A stretch of 24,199 bases of DNA, taken from the IMG/VR virus record IMGVR_UViG_3300000288_000064; one strand, 5' to 3'. How positions within the stretch are numbered: the first letter of the stretch is position 1; each line of letters begins with the position of its first letter. The position numbers and the translations under genes are program-made. Under the pieces are notes generated by a model. The model was not told where the DNA came from, searched no databases, and saw only the letters and a program-made list of their open reading frames with translations. Below, piece after piece: positions 11,150 through 19,100 of the stretch. Source of the DNA: a virus. Lineage: Duplodnaviria > Heunggongvirae > Uroviricota > Caudoviricetes.

Positions 11150-11542
11150 ATGGCCAGACTGATTAAAAACATTGATACGATAAGCCACGGCTCGCTAAAA
11201 GCGGGCCGTTTGCTTAATGGGCTAATGGATAACTCCAGAATTGCCGAACTGATTGCGTCAGGACATGCTATTGCCACCGAAGAGGATGGTGATTTGGCAT
11301 CGGCTGGGGGCTATGATGCTGCTAAGTTAGCTTTTGAGCATGGATACGCATCTGCTGTTAATGATGCTGTGGACGCGGGGTTGATTACGCGAACGGAGGC
11401 GGGTAGCTGTGTATTCGAGGTTGAGTTTGAGGATGATGGCGGCAATGAGGAAATGGTTGCTGATGATTCATCTGAATCTGTAGCTACTTCTGATACCAGT
11501 AATGCGAAAAAATCAACGCAAAAAAAAGGTAATAAGAAGTAA
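11150..11542 (+). CDS. hypothetical protein (130 aa), positionally equivalent to lambda FI
   Basis: Coupled to the capsid stop; acidic C-terminal segment followed by a Lys-rich tail (KKSTQKKGNKK). No recognisable motif. Confidence 0.5.
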   Translation: MARLIKNIDTISHGSLKAGRLLNGLMDNSRIAELIASGHAIATEEDGDLASAGGYDAAKLAFEHGYASAVNDAVDAGLITRTEAGSCVFEVEFEDDGGNEEMVADDSSESVATSDTSNAKKSTQKKGNKK

Positions 11543-12368: not shown

Positions 12369-12659
12369 ATGGCTAATAAGAAAAGTAGTAAAGAAGATAT
12401 AGAAAAGAAGGAAGATGTTGCTCAAACATTTGTATATATAGGGCCAACAATCCCTCAACTCTCAATTTTGAAGCATAAACTATTTAAGAATGGCTTATCT
12501 CCAGAGTGTGAAAAATTAATATCACATATTCCTGGTGCAAAGTGTTTGTTTGTGGCAACCAGTGATTTTTCAGATGCAGAAAAAAGACTTTCTGATAAAA
12601 CCAGTGTCGAGTATGTAATGTACTCTAGAGTTTCTTCTTCTATCATGGAGATTAAATAA
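12369..12659 (+). CDS. hypothetical protein (96 aa), low-GC, Lys/Glu/Ser-rich
   Basis: ATG-initiated ORF coupled to neighbours on both sides; no motif recognised. Confidence 0.45.
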   Translation: MANKKSSKEDIEKKEDVAQTFVYIGPTIPQLSILKHKLFKNGLSPECEKLISHIPGAKCLFVATSDFSDAEKRLSDKTSVEYVMYSRVSSSIMEIK

Positions 12660-14122
12660 TGGGATATCGCCACGGTATTTATATATCTGAGCTGGCTACA
12701 TCTATAACTCCTCCAGTACAAGTTAGTGCTGGGTTGATTGTCGCATTTGGTACAACTCCTGTTAATCAGTTAGAAGATCCAGCCTCAGCGGTAAATAAAC
12801 CTATCATTGCTTATACATACGCAGAGGCCGTATCTAAAATAGGATATAGCACAAACTTCGAGAAATATACTTTAAGCGAAGTAATTAAAGTCGCATTTGG
12901 AATATATGGTGTTGCGCCAGTTGTATTTATCAATGTGCTTGATCCAGCAAAGCATAAGAAAGACGTAACTGATGAGGTAGTAAAACTTTCTGGCGGGAAA
13001 GGTACGCTCTCTAACGATGGTGTCTTATATAAATCTGTTGTTGTGAAAAAAGCAGATGGTGATTCTCCAGGGTTAACGGTTGATACAGATTATGTACTGG
13101 CGCTGGATGATAATGGCTATACGGTCATTACCGCTATTAGCGGAGGAAAAATTACTGAAAAAGACGCCACTCTTAAGGTTAGTTATACGCATCTTGATCC
13201 CGGGGCTGTAACTAAAAACGATATTATTGGTGGTGTGGATTCCAACACTAAAGCGAATACGGGGCTTGAGTTACTGTCGGATGTTTATCCCCGCTTCAAA
13301 CTAGTTCCAGGACAAGTGATTGCGCCTGGATTTAGTTCTGATAGTGAAGTTGGCCAGCTAATGGCGGCTAAAGCTGCGCTGATTAGTGAATTGTTCAAAG
13401 CAGAAGCTATCACCGATGCGCCGACTGATAAATCTACTATCAGTGATTATTCTGCTGTTCCTGAATGGAAGCAGAACAATAATCATATGGCAGCTAACCA
13501 GACAGTGTGCTGGCCGATGGTGAAACTTGGTGACAATATTTACCATCACTCAACCCATTTAGCGGCAGCAACATGCTTGCTGGATAGTCAGTATGGTGAT
13601 ATTCCATCACGTTCTCCGTCAAATATAAAACTACAGATGGACGGTGCTGTACGTAAAGATGGCAGTGAGGTATGGCTTAACATTAGCCAGGCAAACTACT
13701 TAAATGGACAGGGGATTGTAACAAGCCTTAATTTTGATGGTTGGAAATCATGGGGAAACCGTAATGCTATTTATCCAACATCTACAGACCCCAAAGACGC
13801 ATTTCGTGTTTGCCGACGTATGTTTAACTGGGTGGGTAATACGTTAATTCTTTCGCATTGGTCAAAAATAGACAATCCTGCAAACCGTCGATTAATTGAA
13901 TCGATTGTTACTAGTGCGAATATTTGGCTTAACGGCCTCACTGGTAATCAGGATATTGCAGGTGGTGTTGTTACCTTTGATCAGTCTGAAAACACGATTA
14001 CGTCATTGATGGACGGGATTGTTAAATTCCATGTAAAAATGACACCATTCTCACCTGCCAGAGATATAGAGTTCGTCATGGAATATAATCCTGATTATCT
14101 GCTGAACTTGTTTTCTGAATAA
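12659..14122 (+). CDS. contractile tail sheath protein
   Basis: 487 aa; N-terminus MGYRHGIYISE matches the characteristic sheath start (P2 FI-type, HHGVxVxE); immediately upstream of the tube gene. Confidence 0.9.
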   Translation: MGYRHGIYISELATSITPPVQVSAGLIVAFGTTPVNQLEDPASAVNKPIIAYTYAEAVSKIGYSTNFEKYTLSEVIKVAFGIYGVAPVVFINVLDPAKHKKDVTDEVVKLSGGKGTLSNDGVLYKSVVVKKADGDSPGLTVDTDYVLALDDNGYTVITAISGGKITEKDATLKVSYTHLDPGAVTKNDIIGGVDSNTKANTGLELLSDVYPRFKLVPGQVIAPGFSSDSEVGQLMAAKAALISELFKAEAITDAPTDKSTISDYSAVPEWKQNNNHMAANQTVCWPMVKLGDNIYHHSTHLAAATCLLDSQYGDIPSRSPSNIKLQMDGAVRKDGSEVWLNISQANYLNGQGIVTSLNFDGWKSWGNRNAIYPTSTDPKDAFRVCRRMFNWVGNTLILSHWSKIDNPANRRLIESIVTSANIWLNGLTGNQDIAGGVVTFDQSENTITSLMDGIVKFHVKMTPFSPARDIEFVMEYNPDYLLNLFSE

Positions 14123-14138
14123 ATAATAGGAGGTTGCT

Positions 14139-14660
14139 TTGAGCAATCAAATTCCTGAGAGACTTATTAACTTTACAGTATACGGTGAAGGAAACCGTAT
14201 TATCGGTGTTGCTGACGCAAAGCTGCCATCAATTGAGATGATGACAGAAACTGTTAGTGGTGCAGGTATCGCTGGAGAGCTTGAGAGCGGAACGCTGGGG
14301 CATTTCAAACCAATGACTGTCTCTCTTAAATGGCGAACTCTGACCTCTGCTGGTACAAAATTATTTCTATCCTCATCGCATCAGGTAGATTTTCGCGGTA
14401 GCCAGCAGGTTTATGATGCAGGAACAGGAAAATATAAAACGGTTCCTATTCGGGCTTCAATGAAGCTAAACCCTAAAAAACTGGATTTAGGTTCGCTACA
14501 GGTGGCAAAGGCTACTGATTCAGAGAATGAATTTGAAGTTCTCTATATCAAATTATTTATTGATGGAAAAGAAGTCCTGGAAATTGATAAGTTGAACTTT
14601 ATTTGTATCTTTGATGGTGAAGATATATTAAAAAGCGTTCGTGATGATTTAGGTTTATAA
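14139..14660 (+). CDS. tail tube protein (P2 FII-like)
   Basis: 173 aa; C-terminus ELVEIDKLNFICIFDGEDILKSVRDDLGL is close to P2 FII (ELVEIDTINMIEKVNGVDRLEQHRRNIGL). TTG start 5 nt after AGGAGG. Confidence 0.85.
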   Translation: MSNQIPERLINFTVYGEGNRIIGVADAKLPSIEMMTETVSGAGIAGELESGTLGHFKPMTVSLKWRTLTSAGTKLFLSSSHQVDFRGSQQVYDAGTGKYKTVPIRASMKLNPKKLDLGSLQVAKATDSENEFEVLYIKLFIDGKEVLEIDKLNFICIFDGEDILKSVRDDLGL

Positions 14661-14669
14661 GGTGACAAA

Positions 14670-14951
14670 ATGGAAACCGTTAAATTAAGTAAAGAATATC
14701 GTTTTGAAGACTTTGAGCCGGTGACTGAACTCAACCTTGATTTAGACAACCTAAAAGGCAGTGATATTTTAGAGGTATCGGACTTACTGCAATCTCAAGG
14801 GCATGTTTCAGTTCAAACATCACTTGATAATAAAGTCCATGCAGCCTTGGCTGCTCGCTGTATTGGTCGTCCAATAGAGTATCTGAATGGATTACCAGCG
14901 AAAGACTTTGTTAAAGTTTGTCAAAAGGTACAGAATTTTTTGCTCTCGTAG
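14670..14951 (+). CDS. tail assembly chaperone (P2 gpE-like), zero-frame product
   Basis: 93 aa between tube and tape measure genes; ends at TAG just past a TTTTTTG heptamer. Confidence 0.7.
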   Translation: METVKLSKEYRFEDFEPVTELNLDLDNLKGSDILEVSDLLQSQGHVSVQTSLDNKVHAALAARCIGRPIEYLNGLPAKDFVKVCQKVQNFLLS

Positions 14952-15100
14952 GTTTTGATGAGCAAAAACCTATTGATAAGCAAATAATGAGGGCCGCGAG
15001 TTCTCTATCTCAATCATCTCAATCAACACCTATATCCTACTGGCTTTCGCTTCGGTTGAGGCGAATCGTCGCATGGATTGACGTGTTTAATGAGGATTAA
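14670..15100 (+). CDS. tail assembly chaperone frameshift fusion (gpE+E-prime-like), predicted -1 product
   Basis: A -1 frame ORF (14918..15100) overlaps the 3' end of 14670..14951 and ends 5 nt before the tape measure start; the slippery heptamer sits in the overlap. Confidence 0.55.
14937..14943 (+). other. slippery heptamer T_TTT_TTG for programmed -1 ribosomal frameshift
   Basis: Read directly: zero-frame codons AAT TTT TTG at 14934..14942; a -1 slip from TTT-TTG continues into ORF 14918..15100. Confidence 0.55.
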
Positions 15101-15105
15101 TACTA

Positions 15106-17898
15106 ATGGCCAGCAATAAGAACTTTAAGCTGGCTTTTGAAATTGGCGGCAAAGTTGCCGCCTCTCTCCCCAAAAGTTTTACTACAGCTAATCAGGCTGT
15201 TGCTAAATTAAATGCAGAGCTTGCTGGATTAACGAAAGAACATGGGGAAATTCAAAAGCTACAATCTGTAAAAGTAAAGGTTGGACAGACTGCCCTCGAA
15301 TATCATAAAGCTGCCGCTCGCGTTGAAGAGTTACAGAAGCAAATAAAAAACACGGCCAATCCAACCAGAGCGATGCTTCGTGACTTTGAGAAGGCAAAAA
15401 CACATTCATCAAATTTACGAGCATCACTACGTTCTCAGCGTGAAGAACTGGCCGCTTTAAAGTCTGCCTATCAGGGAGCTGATACATCTGCCAGAGCTTT
15501 GGCCTCAAGAGAGAAAGAGCTTAAAGCCAGCATTGATCGTAATCGTGAGGCTCAGGCCCGTAGCGTTGAGCAGGTTAACCGCTACAGAACGGCTTTGGCT
15601 TTAGCCAGAGCAAATGTTCAGCAAGTGAAAAAACAGCAGGAGGAACTTAACCGGGCATTAGAAAAACAACGTATTGATAAAATTAACAGCTATAAAAATG
15701 CGTTGGCTGAAGCACGGAAAAATGTTCTTGCAGTAAAACGTGCTCAGGAGGAGTTAAACCGCGCGTTGGAAAGGCAGCGTGAATTGAAGCGAGAGCATCT
15801 TGGTGAGGCAAAGAGTCAACTTGTAAGGTCAGGATTACAAACTGGTGCTGTAGCGGCTGGTGCATTTGCTGCTGCTAACAATGCAGCAAATTTCAATCGT
15901 GAAAACAAAATGATTGGTCTTACGGCAGATATGAAGCCGGAAGAAGTTCAGGCGATGGGGCAGGCGATGCTTGTTACCGGAACGGCTACCAACCAGTTTG
16001 CATCTGATATTCAGGCCGCTCAGGGTTTTCTCGTCGCTGCTGGGCAGGATTATAAAGAGGCTCAGGCGAATCTACTAACTATTGGGCGAACAGCTACAGC
16101 TACTGGCTCTGATATCCTCGATGTCTCGAAAGCATCATTTACATTAAGTGACTCATTGAAGATTGATCCATCTCAAATGAAGTCTGCAATGGGGATTCTG
16201 GTTCAGGCAGGGAAAGAGGGGAACTTTGAATTTAAAGATATGGCCAAAAATCTTCCTGTGCTTGGTGCTCAGTTCCAGGCATTAAAAATGGGAGGTAAAG
16301 AAGCAGCCGCGACGATGGGTGCAGCTTTGCAGATAGCTCGCAAGGGGGCTGCAACTTCGGATGAGGCTGCTAATAATATGAACAACTTTTTGGCAAAAAT
16401 ACTTTCCCCTGAAACACTAAAAAAAGCAAAGAAAAATTTCGGTGTAGATTTATATAAAATTGTTACAACAGCGCAGAAAAAAGGGAAGAATCCATTCGAA
16501 GCTGCAATGCATTCTGTCATGAAAATGACTAAGAACGGAGATCAGAAGTTACTTGGTGAACTATTTGGCGATATGCAGGTTCAGAACTTTGTTCGTCCGA
16601 TGATTCAAAACTGGAAGGAATACCAGAGAATCAAAGCAACATCTCTTGGAGCTGGAAGTGCTGTTATTGACCGCGATTTTGCCAACATAACGAAAGATAA
16701 TGCGGAGCGATTGAAACAATTACGTATTCAGGCTAGCAATGCATCATTAAGTTTTGGTCAGGCCTTGCAACCTGCTTTGAATGCCGCGCTTAGTGTTTTG
16801 GTTCCGCTGATTACAAAAATTAGTGAATTTGTAGCTAACAACCCCAATTTTGTGTCTCAGATAGTGATGGCGGCAGGTGCGTTTCTAACCATGAAAAGTG
16901 TGGTTATAGCGTGTAGGGTAGCTATGCTGGCTTTATCTGTAGCGACAAAGCTAACACCCTTCGGGTGGATTCAGATGGCTATATCTGCGCTGGTTGCCGC
17001 AGGAATATTGCTCTATCAGAATTGGGATAAGATCAGAGATTATGCTGTCAGAGTTTGGCCTTCTGTTAAGGAATATACAGTTAAATCATTTGAGGCTATA
17101 AAAAACTTTATCTTAAACTTTGACCTCAATGGATGGATTATATCTATGTTTGGTAAAGCATGGGATTATCTTTCCAACATAAACTGGAGTTCGGCAGGAG
17201 TAAGAATTTACAGTACATTAATTAGTGCTTTTAAATGGATGTCTCCGCTTCCGTTCTTAATTAAAGCATTTAAAATTACAACAAATTACCTTTCTGGCAT
17301 TAACTGGAGCGAAACAGGAAAGAAAATCATAGATACACTGGTATCTGTTTTTATGCGTTTTTCACCAGTTGGACTCTTTATAAGAGCATTCCAATCTGTA
17401 ACGACTTATTTATCTGGAATAAACTGGAGTGAGTCAGGCGCAAAAATAATTGAGACGTTAATCACTGGGATAAAATCAAAAGCAAATGCTTTAATTAATG
17501 AAGTGAAAGGCGTTTTTTCTTCTGTACGTGAGTATTTACCGTTCTCTGACGCGAAAAAAGGTCCATTCTCACAGCTAACAAAGTCAGGTGGTGCAATAAT
17601 GACTACTCTGGCATCAGGTGTTAGCAGGAATAACAGCTTACAGAATGCAATAGCAAGCAAGTTCGGGCAATCAAATTTATCACCTCACGGGATATCTGCC
17701 GCTGGGACTTCTGGACCTCGCCAGAACGTTAACGCTGTGACTGGTGGAATAACCTATTCACCTGTAATCAATCTTCCGGCTGGTTCACCAAAGGAAACTG
17801 AGGCGGCAGCTAAAAGAGCATTAGATGCGGGATATTCTGATTTTGAGAAGAAATTGAGTGCTCATATGTTCCAACAACGGAGATTAAGTTTTGGATGA
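15106..17898 (+). CDS. tail tape measure protein
   Basis: 930 aa downstream of the chaperone pair; coiled-coil N-terminal third, hydrophobic segment and tandem repeats, all typical of tape measure proteins. Confidence 0.9.
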   Translation: MASNKNFKLAFEIGGKVAASLPKSFTTANQAVAKLNAELAGLTKEHGEIQKLQSVKVKVGQTALEYHKAAARVEELQKQIKNTANPTRAMLRDFEKAKTHSSNLRASLRSQREELAALKSAYQGADTSARALASREKELKASIDRNREAQARSVEQVNRYRTALALARANVQQVKKQQEELNRALEKQRIDKINSYKNALAEARKNVLAVKRAQEELNRALERQRELKREHLGEAKSQLVRSGLQTGAVAAGAFAAANNAANFNRENKMIGLTADMKPEEVQAMGQAMLVTGTATNQFASDIQAAQGFLVAAGQDYKEAQANLLTIGRTATATGSDILDVSKASFTLSDSLKIDPSQMKSAMGILVQAGKEGNFEFKDMAKNLPVLGAQFQALKMGGKEAAATMGAALQIARKGAATSDEAANNMNNFLAKILSPETLKKAKKNFGVDLYKIVTTAQKKGKNPFEAAMHSVMKMTKNGDQKLLGELFGDMQVQNFVRPMIQNWKEYQRIKATSLGAGSAVIDRDFANITKDNAERLKQLRIQASNASLSFGQALQPALNAALSVLVPLITKISEFVANNPNFVSQIVMAAGAFLTMKSVVIACRVAMLALSVATKLTPFGWIQMAISALVAAGILLYQNWDKIRDYAVRVWPSVKEYTVKSFEAIKNFILNFDLNGWIISMFGKAWDYLSNINWSSAGVRIYSTLISAFKWMSPLPFLIKAFKITTNYLSGINWSETGKKIIDTLVSVFMRFSPVGLFIRAFQSVTTYLSGINWSESGAKIIETLITGIKSKANALINEVKGVFSSVREYLPFSDAKKGPFSQLTKSGGAIMTTLASGVSRNNSLQNAIASKFGQSNLSPHGISAAGTSGPRQNVNAVTGGITYSPVINLPAGSPKETEAAAKRALDAGYSDFEKKLSAHMFQQRRLSFG
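15573..15782 (+). repeat. tandem duplication of about 33 codons inside the tape measure gene
   Basis: Protein RYRTALALARANVQQVKKQQEELNRALEKQR versus SYKNALAEARKNVLAVKRAQEELNRALERQR; the two DNA copies are clearly related. Confidence 0.6.
17158..17520 (+). repeat. three tandem repeats of about 40 codons (YLSxINWS motif) inside the tape measure gene
   Basis: AWDYLSNINWSSAG..., TNYLSGINWSETGKKIIDTL..., TYLSGINWSESGAKIIETL... recur at about 120-123-bp spacing. Confidence 0.6.
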
Positions 17899-18109
17899 TT
17901 ATAGAACGGTTCAAGGGGACTCATGGGATAGTATCGCTTTAAAGTTGTATGGTAATGAGTACCTGTCTTATCTTCTTATTGATGCTAATACTGAGCACCG
18001 CTTTACGGTGCTTTTTTCTGCGGGAATTATTCTTAAAGTTCCTGATGCTCCGGTTATGCCAATATCAGTAAACAATTTTCCTCCGTGGAGACGCAATAGT
18101 GTTACGTAA
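17891..18109 (+). CDS. tail protein X-like (LysM-like, P2 gpX family)
   Basis: 72 aa; MDDYRTVQGDSWDSIALKLYG aligns from residue 1 with P2 gpX (MKTFALQGDTLDAICVRYYG). TTG start 7 nt after GGAGA, overlapping the tape measure stop. Confidence 0.6.
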   Translation: MDDYRTVQGDSWDSIALKLYGNEYLSYLLIDANTEHRFTVLFSAGIILKVPDAPVMPISVNNFPPWRRNSVT

Positions 18110-19100
18110 AACGCTTTTTGATGTTATATATCAGAATGTAAATATTACCGCTCATATGTCACCTGATGTTTTGTCAATGTCTTATACAGATAATGAAGAT
18201 GGTCAGGTCGATGATATTTCTATTATATTAAAAAATGATGATGGGAAATGGTCTGGAGACTGGACACCTAAAAAGGGTGATTTTATTGATTTGAGCTTTA
18301 AGCCTATAAATCAAATCGTCCTTGAGTGCGGGAAATTCCAGGTAGATGGCATAACTTGCTCTGGACCACCTTCTGTGGTTGAGGTAACTGCTGTTTCTGT
18401 TCCTGTTTCATCAGGCATTAGACGTGATTTAAAAAGTAATGCATGGGAAAAAACAACTCTTAAAGATATAGCAACTTCTATAGCTAAATTAGCTAACCTT
18501 GAACTGTTGTTTCTTATTGATGGTGATAGTAATCCATATTATGCGCGTGAAGATCAAATGGAGGAAAGCGATTTAAAATTTCTCCATCGACTTTGCCAGG
18601 ATGAAGGGTTGTCGTTAAAGGTCACTGATAGCCAATTAATAATATTTGCTCAAGAGATGTTTGAGCAAAAAGATCCTATCGCTACGCTTACGTTAGGTAT
18701 TGATGAGATAATCAGATATAGCTTTAGCACACAATCTACAGATTTGTATAAAAGTTGCACGTGCAAATATCGCGTACCTAAAAAAAGAAAGTCGCTTTCG
18801 TATACTTGGGTAGATCCATCCGTAGAAGAAGGGTCGAATCTTAAGATAAGAAAACTGGTAGCTAATTTAGATGAAGCAAAACGTAAGGCAAAGGCTGCTT
18901 TGCGGCTTAAAAATAGATATCAAAATACCGGATCTTTAGTATTGGTTGGAGACACCAGATTGGTAGCTGGTGTAACTATAAATCTGGAGGGATTCGGTTC
19001 ATTTTCTGGAAAATATCTTATATCGAAAGCTGTGCATTCAATTGGGACTAGTGGTTATACCACCTCGATTGATGTCCGAAGAGTAATTAATGGGTATTAA
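18099..19100 (+). CDS. tail protein D-like (late control D family, baseplate hub)
   Basis: 333 aa directly after the gpX-like gene, the canonical X-D pairing; GTG start 8 nt after GGAG. Confidence 0.8.
   Translation: MLRKTLFDVIYQNVNITAHMSPDVLSMSYTDNEDGQVDDISIILKNDDGKWSGDWTPKKGDFIDLSFKPINQIVLECGKFQVDGITCSGPPSVVEVTAVSVPVSSGIRRDLKSNAWEKTTLKDIATSIAKLANLELLFLIDGDSNPYYAREDQMEESDLKFLHRLCQDEGLSLKVTDSQLIIFAQEMFEQKDPIATLTLGIDEIIRYSFSTQSTDLYKSCTCKYRVPKKRKSLSYTWVDPSVEEGSNLKIRKLVANLDEAKRKAKAALRLKNRYQNTGSLVLVGDTRLVAGVTINLEGFGSFSGKYLISKAVHSIGTSGYTTSIDVRRVINGY

What the first reader, a model, noticed from the sequence alone, without database searches (positions are those of the whole stretch)
14670..15100. 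Programmed -1 frameshift producing two tail assembly chaperones
The zero-frame chaperone ORF passes through the heptamer T_TTT_TTG (14937..14943) a few codons before its stop, and the -1 frame stays open from there to just before the tape measure gene. This is the arrangement of P2 E/E+E-prime and lambda G/GT, and the same heptamer is the one I recall for P2.
Basis: partly seen in the sequence, partly recalled or inferred. Interest (0 to 1): 0.45.

Follow-up and report, generated by a model that had tools for sequence, protein, structure and literature searches.

The report
Tail chaperone programmed -1 frameshift
This is an ordinary, strongly conserved programmed -1 ribosomal frameshift that makes a short and a long tail assembly chaperone from one gene of an E. 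coli phage-plasmid; it is the P2 E/E+E' and lambda G/GT arrangement, and public annotations of this element have simply missed it.

Summary
The heptamer T_TTT_TTG lies at 14936-14942, in phase (AAT TTT TTG), two codons before the stop of a 93-aa ORF (14670-14951). That ORF sits between the tail tube gene and the tape measure gene. The -1 frame is open from the heptamer to 15100, 5 nt before the tape measure ATG, giving a 143-aa fusion.

- The heptamer is invariant in 10 non-redundant enterobacterial relatives, where only 11 of 91 third codon positions are invariant.
- It is also present in phase in 20 distant viral loci (17 distinct), two Firmicute prophages, Vibrio phage X29 and P2.
- In a 59-protein alignment (mean column identity 25%) the only invariant column is the Phe encoded by the slippery TTT.
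- The extension shows coding constraint only in the -1 frame (pN/pS 0.33, against 1.0 and 2.3) and carries a conserved TP[IV]SYWLSL motif.
- X29 already annotates the same frameshift, and its fusion is 38% identical to this one over 142 residues.

The extension is not the P2 E' Pfam family. A 9-bp hairpin 5 nt downstream is specific to this lineage and is not conserved. Verdict: a new member of a known kind, of low interest, useful mainly as an annotation fix.

The parts
14139..14660 (+). Tail tube protein gene (173 aa), upstream neighbour. By analogy with lambda, it is the likely partner of the frameshift extension.
   Evidence: PF04985 Phage_tube, E 3.5e-44; annotated as major tail tube protein in ON470591 and NZ_CP117232.1.
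14660..14665 (+). Shine-Dalgarno sequence AGGTGA for the chaperone gene, 4 nt before the ATG at 14670. Its first base is the last base of the tube gene's stop codon.
   Evidence: Read directly from the sequence.
14670..14951 (+). Zero-frame tail assembly chaperone ORF, 93 aa (analogue of lambda gpG and P2 gpE).
   Evidence: ORF list; PF10109 Phage_TAC_7 at 25.4 bits (cut-off 25) and phrog_3140 tail assembly chaperone at 8.7e-43; RefSeq product name 'phage tail assembly protein'.
14936..14942 (+). Slippery heptamer T_TTT_TTG (zero frame AAT TTT TTG), the site of the -1 shift.
   Evidence: Sequence. Invariant in 10 non-redundant relatives, where only 11 of 91 third codon positions are invariant. 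Present in phase in 20 distant loci, in P2 and in X29. The Phe it encodes is the only invariant column among 59 homologues.
14942..15100 (+). -1 frame extension: 52 codons plus a TAA stop at 15098-15100. It forms the C-terminal domain of the long chaperone (analogue of lambda T and P2 E'). The fusion is join(14670..14942, 14942..15100) and is 143 aa.
   Evidence: Open in all informative relatives. pN/pS is 0.33 in this frame against 1.01 and 2.30 in the other two, with 0 stops against 2-8. phrog_30074 at 1.7e-31. It is 38% identical, together with the N-terminal part, to the annotated X29 gpGT analogue. The motif TP[IV]SYWLSL is conserved in distant loci.
14948..14973 (+). Candidate downstream hairpin: 9 bp (GUAGGUUUU / AAAACCUAU) with an 8-nt loop, 5 nt after the heptamer. 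It contains the zero-frame stop codon. It is specific to this lineage and its function is unproven.
   Evidence: MFE of the 48-nt stretch downstream of the heptamer (dominated by this hairpin): -9.5 kcal/mol, z -2.0 in the window and z -4.6 in L011. No significant fold in L013, L038, L040, L042, P2 or L005. RNAalifold consensus is only -1.24 kcal/mol with a 3-bp core.
15092..15096 (+). Shine-Dalgarno sequence GAGGA of the tape measure gene, embedded in the last codons (N-E-D) of the extension.
   Evidence: Read directly from the sequence. It may partly explain the conservation of the C-terminal NED.
15106..17898 (+). Tape measure protein gene (930 aa), the presumed client of the chaperones.
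   Evidence: PF10145, E 1e-20, and phrog_28 tail length tape measure protein, 9.4e-109.

Best explanation
The gene at 14670 encodes the tail assembly chaperone pair of a contractile-tailed phage-plasmid. Most ribosomes read 14670-14951 and release a 93-aa protein. A minority slip back one base on U_UUU_UUG (14936-14942): tRNA-Phe re-pairs from UUU to UUU in the P site and tRNA-Leu from UUG to UUU in the A site. These ribosomes continue with GCU at 14942 in the -1 frame, terminate at 15098-15100, and yield a 143-aa fusion (...VQNFL-ALVGFDEQ...FNED). By analogy with lambda gpG/gpGT and P2 gpE/gpE+E', the shared N-terminal domain is expected to coat the tape measure protein encoded immediately downstream. 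The extension is expected to recruit the tail tube subunit, and neither product should remain in the virion. Shown here: the anatomy, homology of the N-terminal part to the TAC_7 family, conservation of the slip site, and purifying selection on the -1 frame. Inferred: that the shift is ribosomal, its efficiency (probably a few per cent, as in lambda and P2), and the binding partners.
For: Anatomy and phase. Gene order sheath-tube-TAC-TMP-gpX-gpD, with Pfam and PHROG assignments. The P2 record has the identical heptamer in the identical phase, and in both proteins the Leu of TTG aligns to PF10109 profile position 78 of 79. In 10 non-redundant relatives (71-96% aa identity in the short product) the codon before TTT TTG is AAT, AGT or CGT, so the amino acid varies while the T is kept. 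Only 11 of 91 third positions are invariant, and three of them are the heptamer codons. The -1 ORF always runs to the tape measure start. pN/pS is 0.33 in the -1 frame against 1.01 and 2.30 in the other phases, with no stops. All 20 distant viral loci (17 distinct) carry T_TTT_TT[GA] in phase plus a -1 ORF with the motif TP[IV]SYWLSL. In three lineages the zero frame runs on 14-19 codons past the heptamer, so the slip site is the conserved feature, not the stop. Blautia and Agathobacter prophages at 34% identity have T_TTT_TTA followed by a 146-nt -1 ORF. F90 is the only invariant column among 59 homologues. Most of the 147 homologues in the representative library end at query residue 91-92. 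Vibrio phage X29 annotates gpG and gpGT analogues at AAT TTT TTG, and its fusion is 38% identical over 142 residues, E 6e-32. The best BFVD fold match is a 147-aa protein aligned over the full length, E 2.8e-10. A metagenomic homologue with a T7 run is a natural in-frame fusion, homologous across both parts. Literature: P2 shifts at TTTTTTG to give 91- and 142-aa products (PMC3091744). The lambda G:GT ratio of about 30:1 is needed for tail assembly, and P2 efficiency is 2-3 fold higher (PMC5009743).
Against: No protein, ribosome profiling or reporter data exist for this element, so all evidence is comparative. The Pfam match of the short product is at threshold (25.4 against 25.0 bits), and the fusion scores 23.7. 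Direct comparison with P2 E+E' is not significant (BLASTP E 4.6; hhalign probability 0.3%). The extension does not hit PF06528. The first 15 codons of the extension are less constrained (pN/pS 0.64) than the rest (0.21), and a Met codon at 14987 is conserved within the enterobacterial clade. No conserved stimulatory RNA structure was found. No solved structure matches the model.
Confidence: 0.92

Rival explanations
1. The fusion is made by transcriptional slippage. RNA polymerase adds one extra U on the T6 run, so a fraction of mRNAs carry U7 and encode the fusion in a single frame. The product would read ...NFF-ALVGF... rather than ...NFL-ALVGF....
For: The site is a homopolymer run. A homologue with a genomic T7 run encodes exactly such an in-frame fusion (DFFERAGLG...), which shows that this product is viable.
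Against: The conserved element is a phased heptamer that includes the base after the run (G or A, always giving a Leu codon), not just a T run. From my own knowledge, six U residues is shorter than the runs known to give efficient bacterial transcriptional slippage. In P2 the same site is described in the literature as a translational frameshift (PMC3091744). The phase of the run relative to the zero frame is invariant in every relative, which slippage by RNA polymerase would not require.
Confidence: 0.04
2. The downstream ORF is translated on its own, either from ATG 14987 (37 aa, MRAASS...) or from TTG 14918 (60 aa), as a separate small tail protein. The heptamer would then be irrelevant.
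For: Gene callers do produce these ORFs. P0021 is the 37-aa peptide at 100% identity. phrog_30074 models a roughly 62-aa ORF that starts 8 residues upstream of the slip site. The Met at 14987 is conserved in the 10 enterobacterial relatives, and constraint is stronger downstream of it.
Against: No Shine-Dalgarno sequence precedes ATG 14987 or TTG 14918. The Met is replaced by Arg, Ile, Ala or Cys in X29 and in many distant loci that keep both the heptamer and the extension. This rival does not explain the invariance of the heptamer at synonymous positions, nor the fact that F90 is the only invariant column in the family. The X29 fusion and the L044 in-frame fusion are homologous across the junction.
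Confidence: 0.03
3. A chance heptamer followed by a non-coding spacer between the chaperone and tape measure genes.
For: In-phase X_XXY_YYZ heptamers are frequent (35 in the window's long + strand ORFs), and about 4% of shuffles of the 156 nt stay open.
Against: The site, the frame, the ORF length and the peptide motif are conserved from enterobacteria to Firmicutes, and the coding signature is restricted to the -1 frame.
Confidence: 0.01

Closest known systems
Vibrio phage X29 tail assembly chaperones (RefSeq NC_024369.2; YP_009043921.1 'lambda gpG analog', YP_009091831.1 'lambda gpGT analog')
   Same: Same gene order (sheath, tube, chaperone, tape measure). Same heptamer and context (AAT TTT TTG...NFL). 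Product sizes are 92 and 147 aa, against 93 and 143 aa here. The fusion is 38% identical over 142 residues (E 6e-32), including the extension motif TPI.YW. It may also be the full-length BFVD fold match A0A097P6T1 (147 aa; its identity was not established).
   Different: Different host (Vibrio cholerae) and only 38% identity. X29 has an extra small ORF between the tube and chaperone genes. In X29 the frameshift is annotated, whereas in every record of the present element that I inspected it is not.
Bacteriophage P2 gpE / gpE+E' (Christie et al. 2002, as cited in PMC3091744; RefSeq NC_001895)
   Same: Identical heptamer T_TTT_TTG in the identical phase. The shift falls at the same Pfam PF10109 profile position. 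Products are 91 and 142 aa, against 93 and 143 aa here. Same position between the tube gene (FII) and the tape measure gene (T). Contractile tail. No strong conserved downstream structure.
   Different: No significant pairwise or profile similarity. P2 E' belongs to PF06528 and the extension here does not. P2 E' overlaps the start of T by 8 nt, whereas here the extension stops 5 nt before the tape measure ATG. P2 is experimentally proven and this element is not.
Phage lambda gpG / gpGT (Levin et al. 1993; Xu et al. 2004, 2013, 2014, as summarised in PMC5009743)
   Same: [quoted passage not shown] A functional model is available: the G part binds the tape measure protein, the T part binds the tube subunit, and neither is present in the virion.
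   Different: From my own knowledge, lambda uses a different heptamer (G_GGA_AAG), has a non-contractile tail, and has a T part that is longer than the extension here. No sequence similarity was tested or expected.

Membership tests
G/GT-type frameshifted tail assembly chaperone pair (Xu, Hendrix and Duda 2004 class) | Located between the major tail (tube) gene and the tape measure gene | tested here: met
   Tube gene 14139-14660 (PF04985), chaperone 14670-14951, tape measure gene 15106-17898 (PF10145).
G/GT-type frameshifted tail assembly chaperone pair (Xu, Hendrix and Duda 2004 class) | A second ORF overlaps the 3' end of the first in the -1 frame and has no ribosome binding site of its own | tested here: met
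   The -1 frame is open over 14915-15100. No Shine-Dalgarno sequence precedes TTG 14918 or ATG 14987.
G/GT-type frameshifted tail assembly chaperone pair (Xu, Hendrix and Duda 2004 class) | Slippery heptamer X_XXY_YYZ in zero-frame phase within the overlap | tested here: met
   T_TTT_TTG at 14936-14942, in phase.
G/GT-type frameshifted tail assembly chaperone pair (Xu, Hendrix and Duda 2004 class) | The slip site and the -1 ORF are conserved in diverged relatives, and the -1 frame is under purifying selection | tested here: met
   Ten enterobacterial relatives, 20 distant loci, two Firmicute prophages, X29 and P2. pN/pS is 0.33 in the -1 frame only. F90 is the only invariant column.
G/GT-type frameshifted tail assembly chaperone pair (Xu, Hendrix and Duda 2004 class) | Both products are made in vivo at a fixed ratio, both are needed for tail assembly, and both are absent from virions | not testable with these tools
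   This needs protein detection and genetics.
Pfam PF10109 Phage_TAC_7 (P2 E, Mu gp41 type) | Score at or above the gathering threshold of 25 bits | tested here: met
   The 93-aa product scores 25.4 bits, E 1.5e-05, over profile positions 1-78 of 79. The match is at threshold. All 10 relatives match at E down to 4.2e-05, but the 143-aa fusion scores 23.7 bits. Independent support comes from phrog_3140 at 8.7e-43.
Pfam PF06528 Phage_P2_GpE (the E' extension of P2) | The extension matches the profile | tested here: not met
   P2 E+E' hits at 1.2e-21 over residues 104-139. The window extension and all 10 fusion products give no hit at E up to 1.
P2 E/E+E' orthologue (Peduoviridae type) | Significant direct sequence similarity to P2 gpE+E' | tested here: not met
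   BLASTP E 4.6 and hhalign probability 0.3%, although the only aligned segment spans the slip site.
X29-type gpG/gpGT analogues | Full-length similarity of the fusion product, extension included | tested here: met
   38% identity over 142 residues, E 6e-32. A full-length BFVD fold match at E 2.8e-10 to a 147-aa protein whose source phage is not named.
-1 frameshift signals with a downstream stimulatory RNA structure | A stable structure 5-9 nt 3' of the heptamer, conserved or covarying in relatives | tested here: inconclusive
   A 9-bp hairpin with a 5-nt spacer is present in the window and L011 (z -2.0 and -4.6). It is not conserved: the alifold consensus is -1.24 kcal/mol and only one pair covaries. 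No Rfam family matches.

The most novel reading that the evidence does not exclude
Two modest novelties are not excluded. (1) The extension may define a widespread, uncurated T-domain family (motif TP[IV]SYWLSL, phrog_30074 'unknown function', no Pfam hit) that is distinct from P2 E' (PF06528). It would be the tube-recruiting module of a large group of myovirus and phage-plasmid tails. (2) The AU-rich hairpin 5 nt downstream, which is specific to this lineage and contains the zero-frame stop codon, may tune the short:long chaperone ratio in this E. coli phage-plasmid clade.
Probability: 0.3. Interest if true: 0.25.

Novelty: new member of a known kind. Interest (0 to 1): 0.15.

Why it matters
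The main value is to annotation. This roughly 48-kb phage-plasmid is carried by 71 of 5,426 complete E. coli genomes, including the reference strain ATCC 25922, and by related Yersinia phages. Every record I inspected annotates only the 93-aa product and leaves 154 nt unannotated. Adding the joined CDS, join(14670..14942, 14942..15100), would complete the tail module. The comparative data also give a clean illustration: a recoding signal can be the single most conserved feature of a protein family, since F90 is the only invariant column among 59 homologues. They further show that the extension domain belongs to a family that curated databases label 'unknown function'. Nothing here changes the understanding of frameshifting or of tail assembly.

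Tried and rejected
- Direct homology to P2 E+E' by BLASTP and hhalign was not significant.
- PF06528 on the extension gave no hit.
- A sequence search of the PDB with the family profile gave only noise. A Foldseek search of the AlphaFold model (pLDDT 86.4) against the PDB gave nothing at E <= 0.001.
- A conserved downstream stimulatory structure was rejected as a family feature. The alifold consensus is -1.24 kcal/mol, and several relatives have z-scores at or above 0.
- Rfam gave nothing relevant.
- The upstream SD-like AAGGT(A/G), 9 nt before the heptamer, is invariant in the enterobacterial set and has the same spacing in P2. However, it is absent in several distant relatives and its conservation is confounded with coding (K-V), so I do not claim it as a stimulator.
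- Three loci were set aside as uninformative. L012 is a truncated element in which a plasmid rep-like gene follows the chaperone gene. L032 and L033 are assemblies riddled with indels.
- A related-loci scan with the 59-sequence alignment failed because no stretch was conserved enough, and scans with P0020 and P0049 found nothing.
- Christie et al. 2002 could not be read because the library does not hold it. Its content is cited second-hand from PMC3091744.

Full report
**Observation.** The region reads ...CAA AAG GTA CAG AAT TTT TTG CTC TCG TAG in the frame of an ATG-initiated ORF at 14670-14951 (93 aa). In phase it is the canonical X_XXY_YYZ pattern T_TTT_TTG. The -1 frame is open from 14915 to a TAA at 15098-15100, 5 nt before the ATG (15106) of a 930-aa ORF. 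A tandem -1 slip yields 91 + 52 = 143 aa.

**Context.** Genes 12659-19100 form a contractile-tail module:
- a sheath-like gene at 12659-14122 (no Pfam hit; named from database annotation);
- a tube gene at 14139-14660 (PF04985, 3.5e-44);
- the 93-aa ORF (PF10109 Phage_TAC_7 at 25.4 bits against a cut-off of 25; phrog_3140 'tail assembly chaperone' at 8.7e-43);
- a tape measure gene (PF10145 at 1e-20; phrog_28 at 9.4e-109);
- a gpX-like ORF and a gpD-like ORF.

The 52-aa extension matches phrog_30074, which has no assigned function (1.7e-31). The DNA is 97-100% identical to plasmids of about 47-50 kb found in 71 of 5,426 complete E. coli genomes, always on plasmids. These include E. coli ATCC 25922 pATCC25922_4, a replicon that carries repA, parA, toxin-antitoxin genes and a full phage morphogenesis set. 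The DNA is also nearly identical to Escherichia phage vB_EcoM-613R2 and to Yersinia phages vB_YpM_39, 41 and 44. Every one of these annotations calls only the 93-aa product and leaves 154 nt empty before the tape measure gene.

**Is it more than chance?**
- In-phase X_XXY_YYZ heptamers are common (35 in the window's long + strand ORFs), so the heptamer alone is weak evidence.
- TTTTTTG itself is depleted, with 4 occurrences against 12.1 +/- 3.1 expected.
- Stops occur at 0.11 per codon in the -1 frame of coding regions, giving P of about 0.002 for 52 open codons. About 4% of mononucleotide shuffles stay open.
- The 154-nt interval is one of only four gene junctions wider than 20 nt among 27 consecutive + strand genes. 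Another of those four (200 nt) holds the unannotated gpX-like ORF.

**Comparative test in close relatives.** I assembled 10 non-redundant relatives from Escherichia, Salmonella, Klebsiella, Citrobacter, Enterobacter, Hafnia and Symbiopectobacterium, with 71-96% aa identity in the short product.
- All carry NNT TTT TTG two codons before a TAG stop. The residue before Phe varies (Asn AAT, Ser AGT, Arg CGT), but the T is always kept.
- Only 11 of 91 third codon positions are invariant across the set, and three of them are the consecutive heptamer codons.
- In every case the -1 frame runs to the tape measure start.
- Read in the -1 frame, the extension has pooled pN/pS of 0.33 and no stops. The same nucleotides in the other two phases give 1.01 and 2.30, with 2-8 stops per sequence.

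**Comparative test in distant relatives.**
- Two Firmicute prophages (Blautia and Agathobacter, 34% identity) have T_TTT_TTA followed by a 146-nt -1 ORF.
- Twenty viral contigs (17 distinct) related to a 41%-identical homologue all carry T_TTT_TT[GA] in phase. All but one have a -1 ORF running about 50-60 codons past the heptamer (L048's is cut short at 36), and all contain the motif TP[IV]SYWLSL seen in the window (STPISYWLSL).
- In three of those lineages the zero frame continues 14-19 codons past the heptamer. The slip site, not the stop codon, is therefore the conserved element.
- A HMMER scan of 1.84 billion representative proteins found 147 homologues, most of which end at query residue 91-92.
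- In a 59-sequence alignment with 25% mean column identity, the only invariant column is F90, the Phe encoded by the slippery TTT.
- One metagenomic homologue has a T7 run and is a natural in-frame fusion, homologous across both parts.

**Known counterparts.** The P2 RefSeq record annotates E (91 aa) and E+E' (142 aa) with a -1 frameshift at GGT TTT TTG. In both P2 and the window, Pfam PF10109 profile position 78 of 79 aligns to the Leu of TTG. However, P2 and the window proteins are not significantly similar to each other. The P2 extension belongs to PF06528, which the window extension does not match.

The closest annotated relative is Vibrio phage X29. Its RefSeq record carries a 'lambda gpG analog' and a joined 'lambda gpGT analog' at AAT TTT TTG. 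Its 147-aa fusion is 38% identical to the window fusion over 142 residues (E 6e-32). An AlphaFold model of the fusion (pLDDT 86.4) has as its best BFVD match a 147-aa viral protein aligned over the full length (E 2.8e-10). Proteins named tail assembly or tape measure chaperone follow in the list. No PDB match was found.

**Mechanism.** The best-supported mechanism is tandem ribosomal slippage on U_UUU_UUG, giving a minor 143-aa product alongside the major 93-aa product. For lambda, the review PMC5009743 reports a ratio of about 30:1 that is critical for tail assembly. It describes G-domain binding to the tape measure protein, T-domain recruitment of the tube subunit, and a 2-3 fold higher efficiency in P2. 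Applying this to the present element is inference.

**Stimulatory elements.**
- A 9-bp AU-rich hairpin (14948-14973) starts 5 nt after the heptamer and contains the zero-frame stop. It folds better than shuffles in the window (z -2.0) and in its closest relative (z -4.6). It is not conserved in other relatives, in P2 or in the Firmicute loci, and the alifold consensus is -1.24 kcal/mol. At most it is a lineage-specific modulator. PMC3091744 likewise reports no hairpins in P2-like phages.
- An SD-like AAGGT(A/G) lies 9 nt upstream with the same spacing as in P2. It is invariant in the enterobacterial set but absent in several distant relatives, and its conservation is confounded with coding.

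**Rivals.**
- Independent initiation at ATG 14987 (37 aa, which some gene callers do call) or at TTG 14918 is unlikely. There is no Shine-Dalgarno sequence, the Met is not conserved outside the enterobacterial clade, and this rival cannot explain the synonymous-site invariance of the heptamer.
- Transcriptional slippage on T6 would give the same frame change but with Phe instead of Leu at position 91. It is disfavoured by the conserved phase and by the conserved seventh base, but only mass spectrometry or RNA-seq can exclude it.
- A non-coding spacer is excluded by the frame-specific constraint.

**Verdict.** This is a textbook G/GT-type tail chaperone frameshift with the P2 heptamer, in a phage-plasmid whose public annotations omit it. 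It is a new member of a known kind and of low interest, with minor value as an annotation correction and as a pointer to an uncurated extension-domain family.

Noticed in passing
window 17891-18109 (+): A 72-aa gpX-like ORF (PF05489 Phage_tail_X at 21.1 bits, just under the cut-off of 22) overlaps the end of the tape measure gene. It is annotated as tail protein X in ON470591 but is missing from the RefSeq plasmid record, which shows a 200-nt gap there.
   Followed up: partly
window 11519-11526 (+), within ORF 11150-11542: An A8 run forms an in-phase A_AAA_AAA heptamer 4 codons before the stop of a gene lying between the capsid and sheath genes. The -1 frame has a stop at 11533-11535, so a slip would only shorten the product and would not fuse it to the next gene.
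   Followed up: partly
whole window: TTTTTTG is depleted: 4 occurrences on both strands against 12.1 +/- 3.1 in dinucleotide-preserving shuffles (no shuffle had fewer than 4). This is consistent with avoidance of this slippery run outside the programmed site.
   Followed up: no
L044 128-628 (ENA ERZ27234820 k141_433436): A homologue whose slip site is a T7 run (GAT TTT TTT GAA), so that chaperone and extension form a single 166-aa in-frame ORF directly upstream of a tape measure-like gene. It may be a genuine fused variant or a homopolymer error.
   Followed up: partly
L012 3001-4451 (IMGVR_UViG_2824588292_000004): A relative in which the chaperone gene and heptamer are intact, but the sequence diverges 20-25 nt after the heptamer into a 277-aa ORF that I read as plasmid replication-initiator-like (no family search run). 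The extension, the tape measure gene and the rest of the tail module are missing, so this looks like a truncated or rearranged element.
   Followed up: partly
proteins P0025, P0029, P0036, P0045, P0047, P0061 and others: Homologues of 166-210 aa match the chaperone domain in two stretches, which suggests tandem duplication of the TAC_7 domain in some phages.
   Followed up: no
window 14925-14930; L034 (P2) 668-673: An SD-like AAGGT(A/G) has its GG exactly 9 nt upstream of the heptamer in both this element and P2. The third-position G of the preceding codon is one of only 11 invariant wobble positions in the enterobacterial set. The motif is absent in several distant relatives.
   Followed up: partly
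whole window; NZ_CP117232.1 (L043): The window belongs to a phage-plasmid of about 48 kb (repA, parA, RelE/ParE toxin, ParB-like genes and a full myovirus morphogenesis set). It is found in 71 of 5,426 complete E. coli genomes, always on plasmids and never on the chromosome.
   Followed up: partly
window 15092-15096: The tape measure gene's Shine-Dalgarno sequence (GAGGA) lies inside the last codons (N-E-D) of the frameshift extension, whose stop is 5 nt before the tape measure ATG. Ribosomes that have shifted frame could therefore reinitiate on the tape measure gene (translational coupling). This is untested.
   Followed up: no
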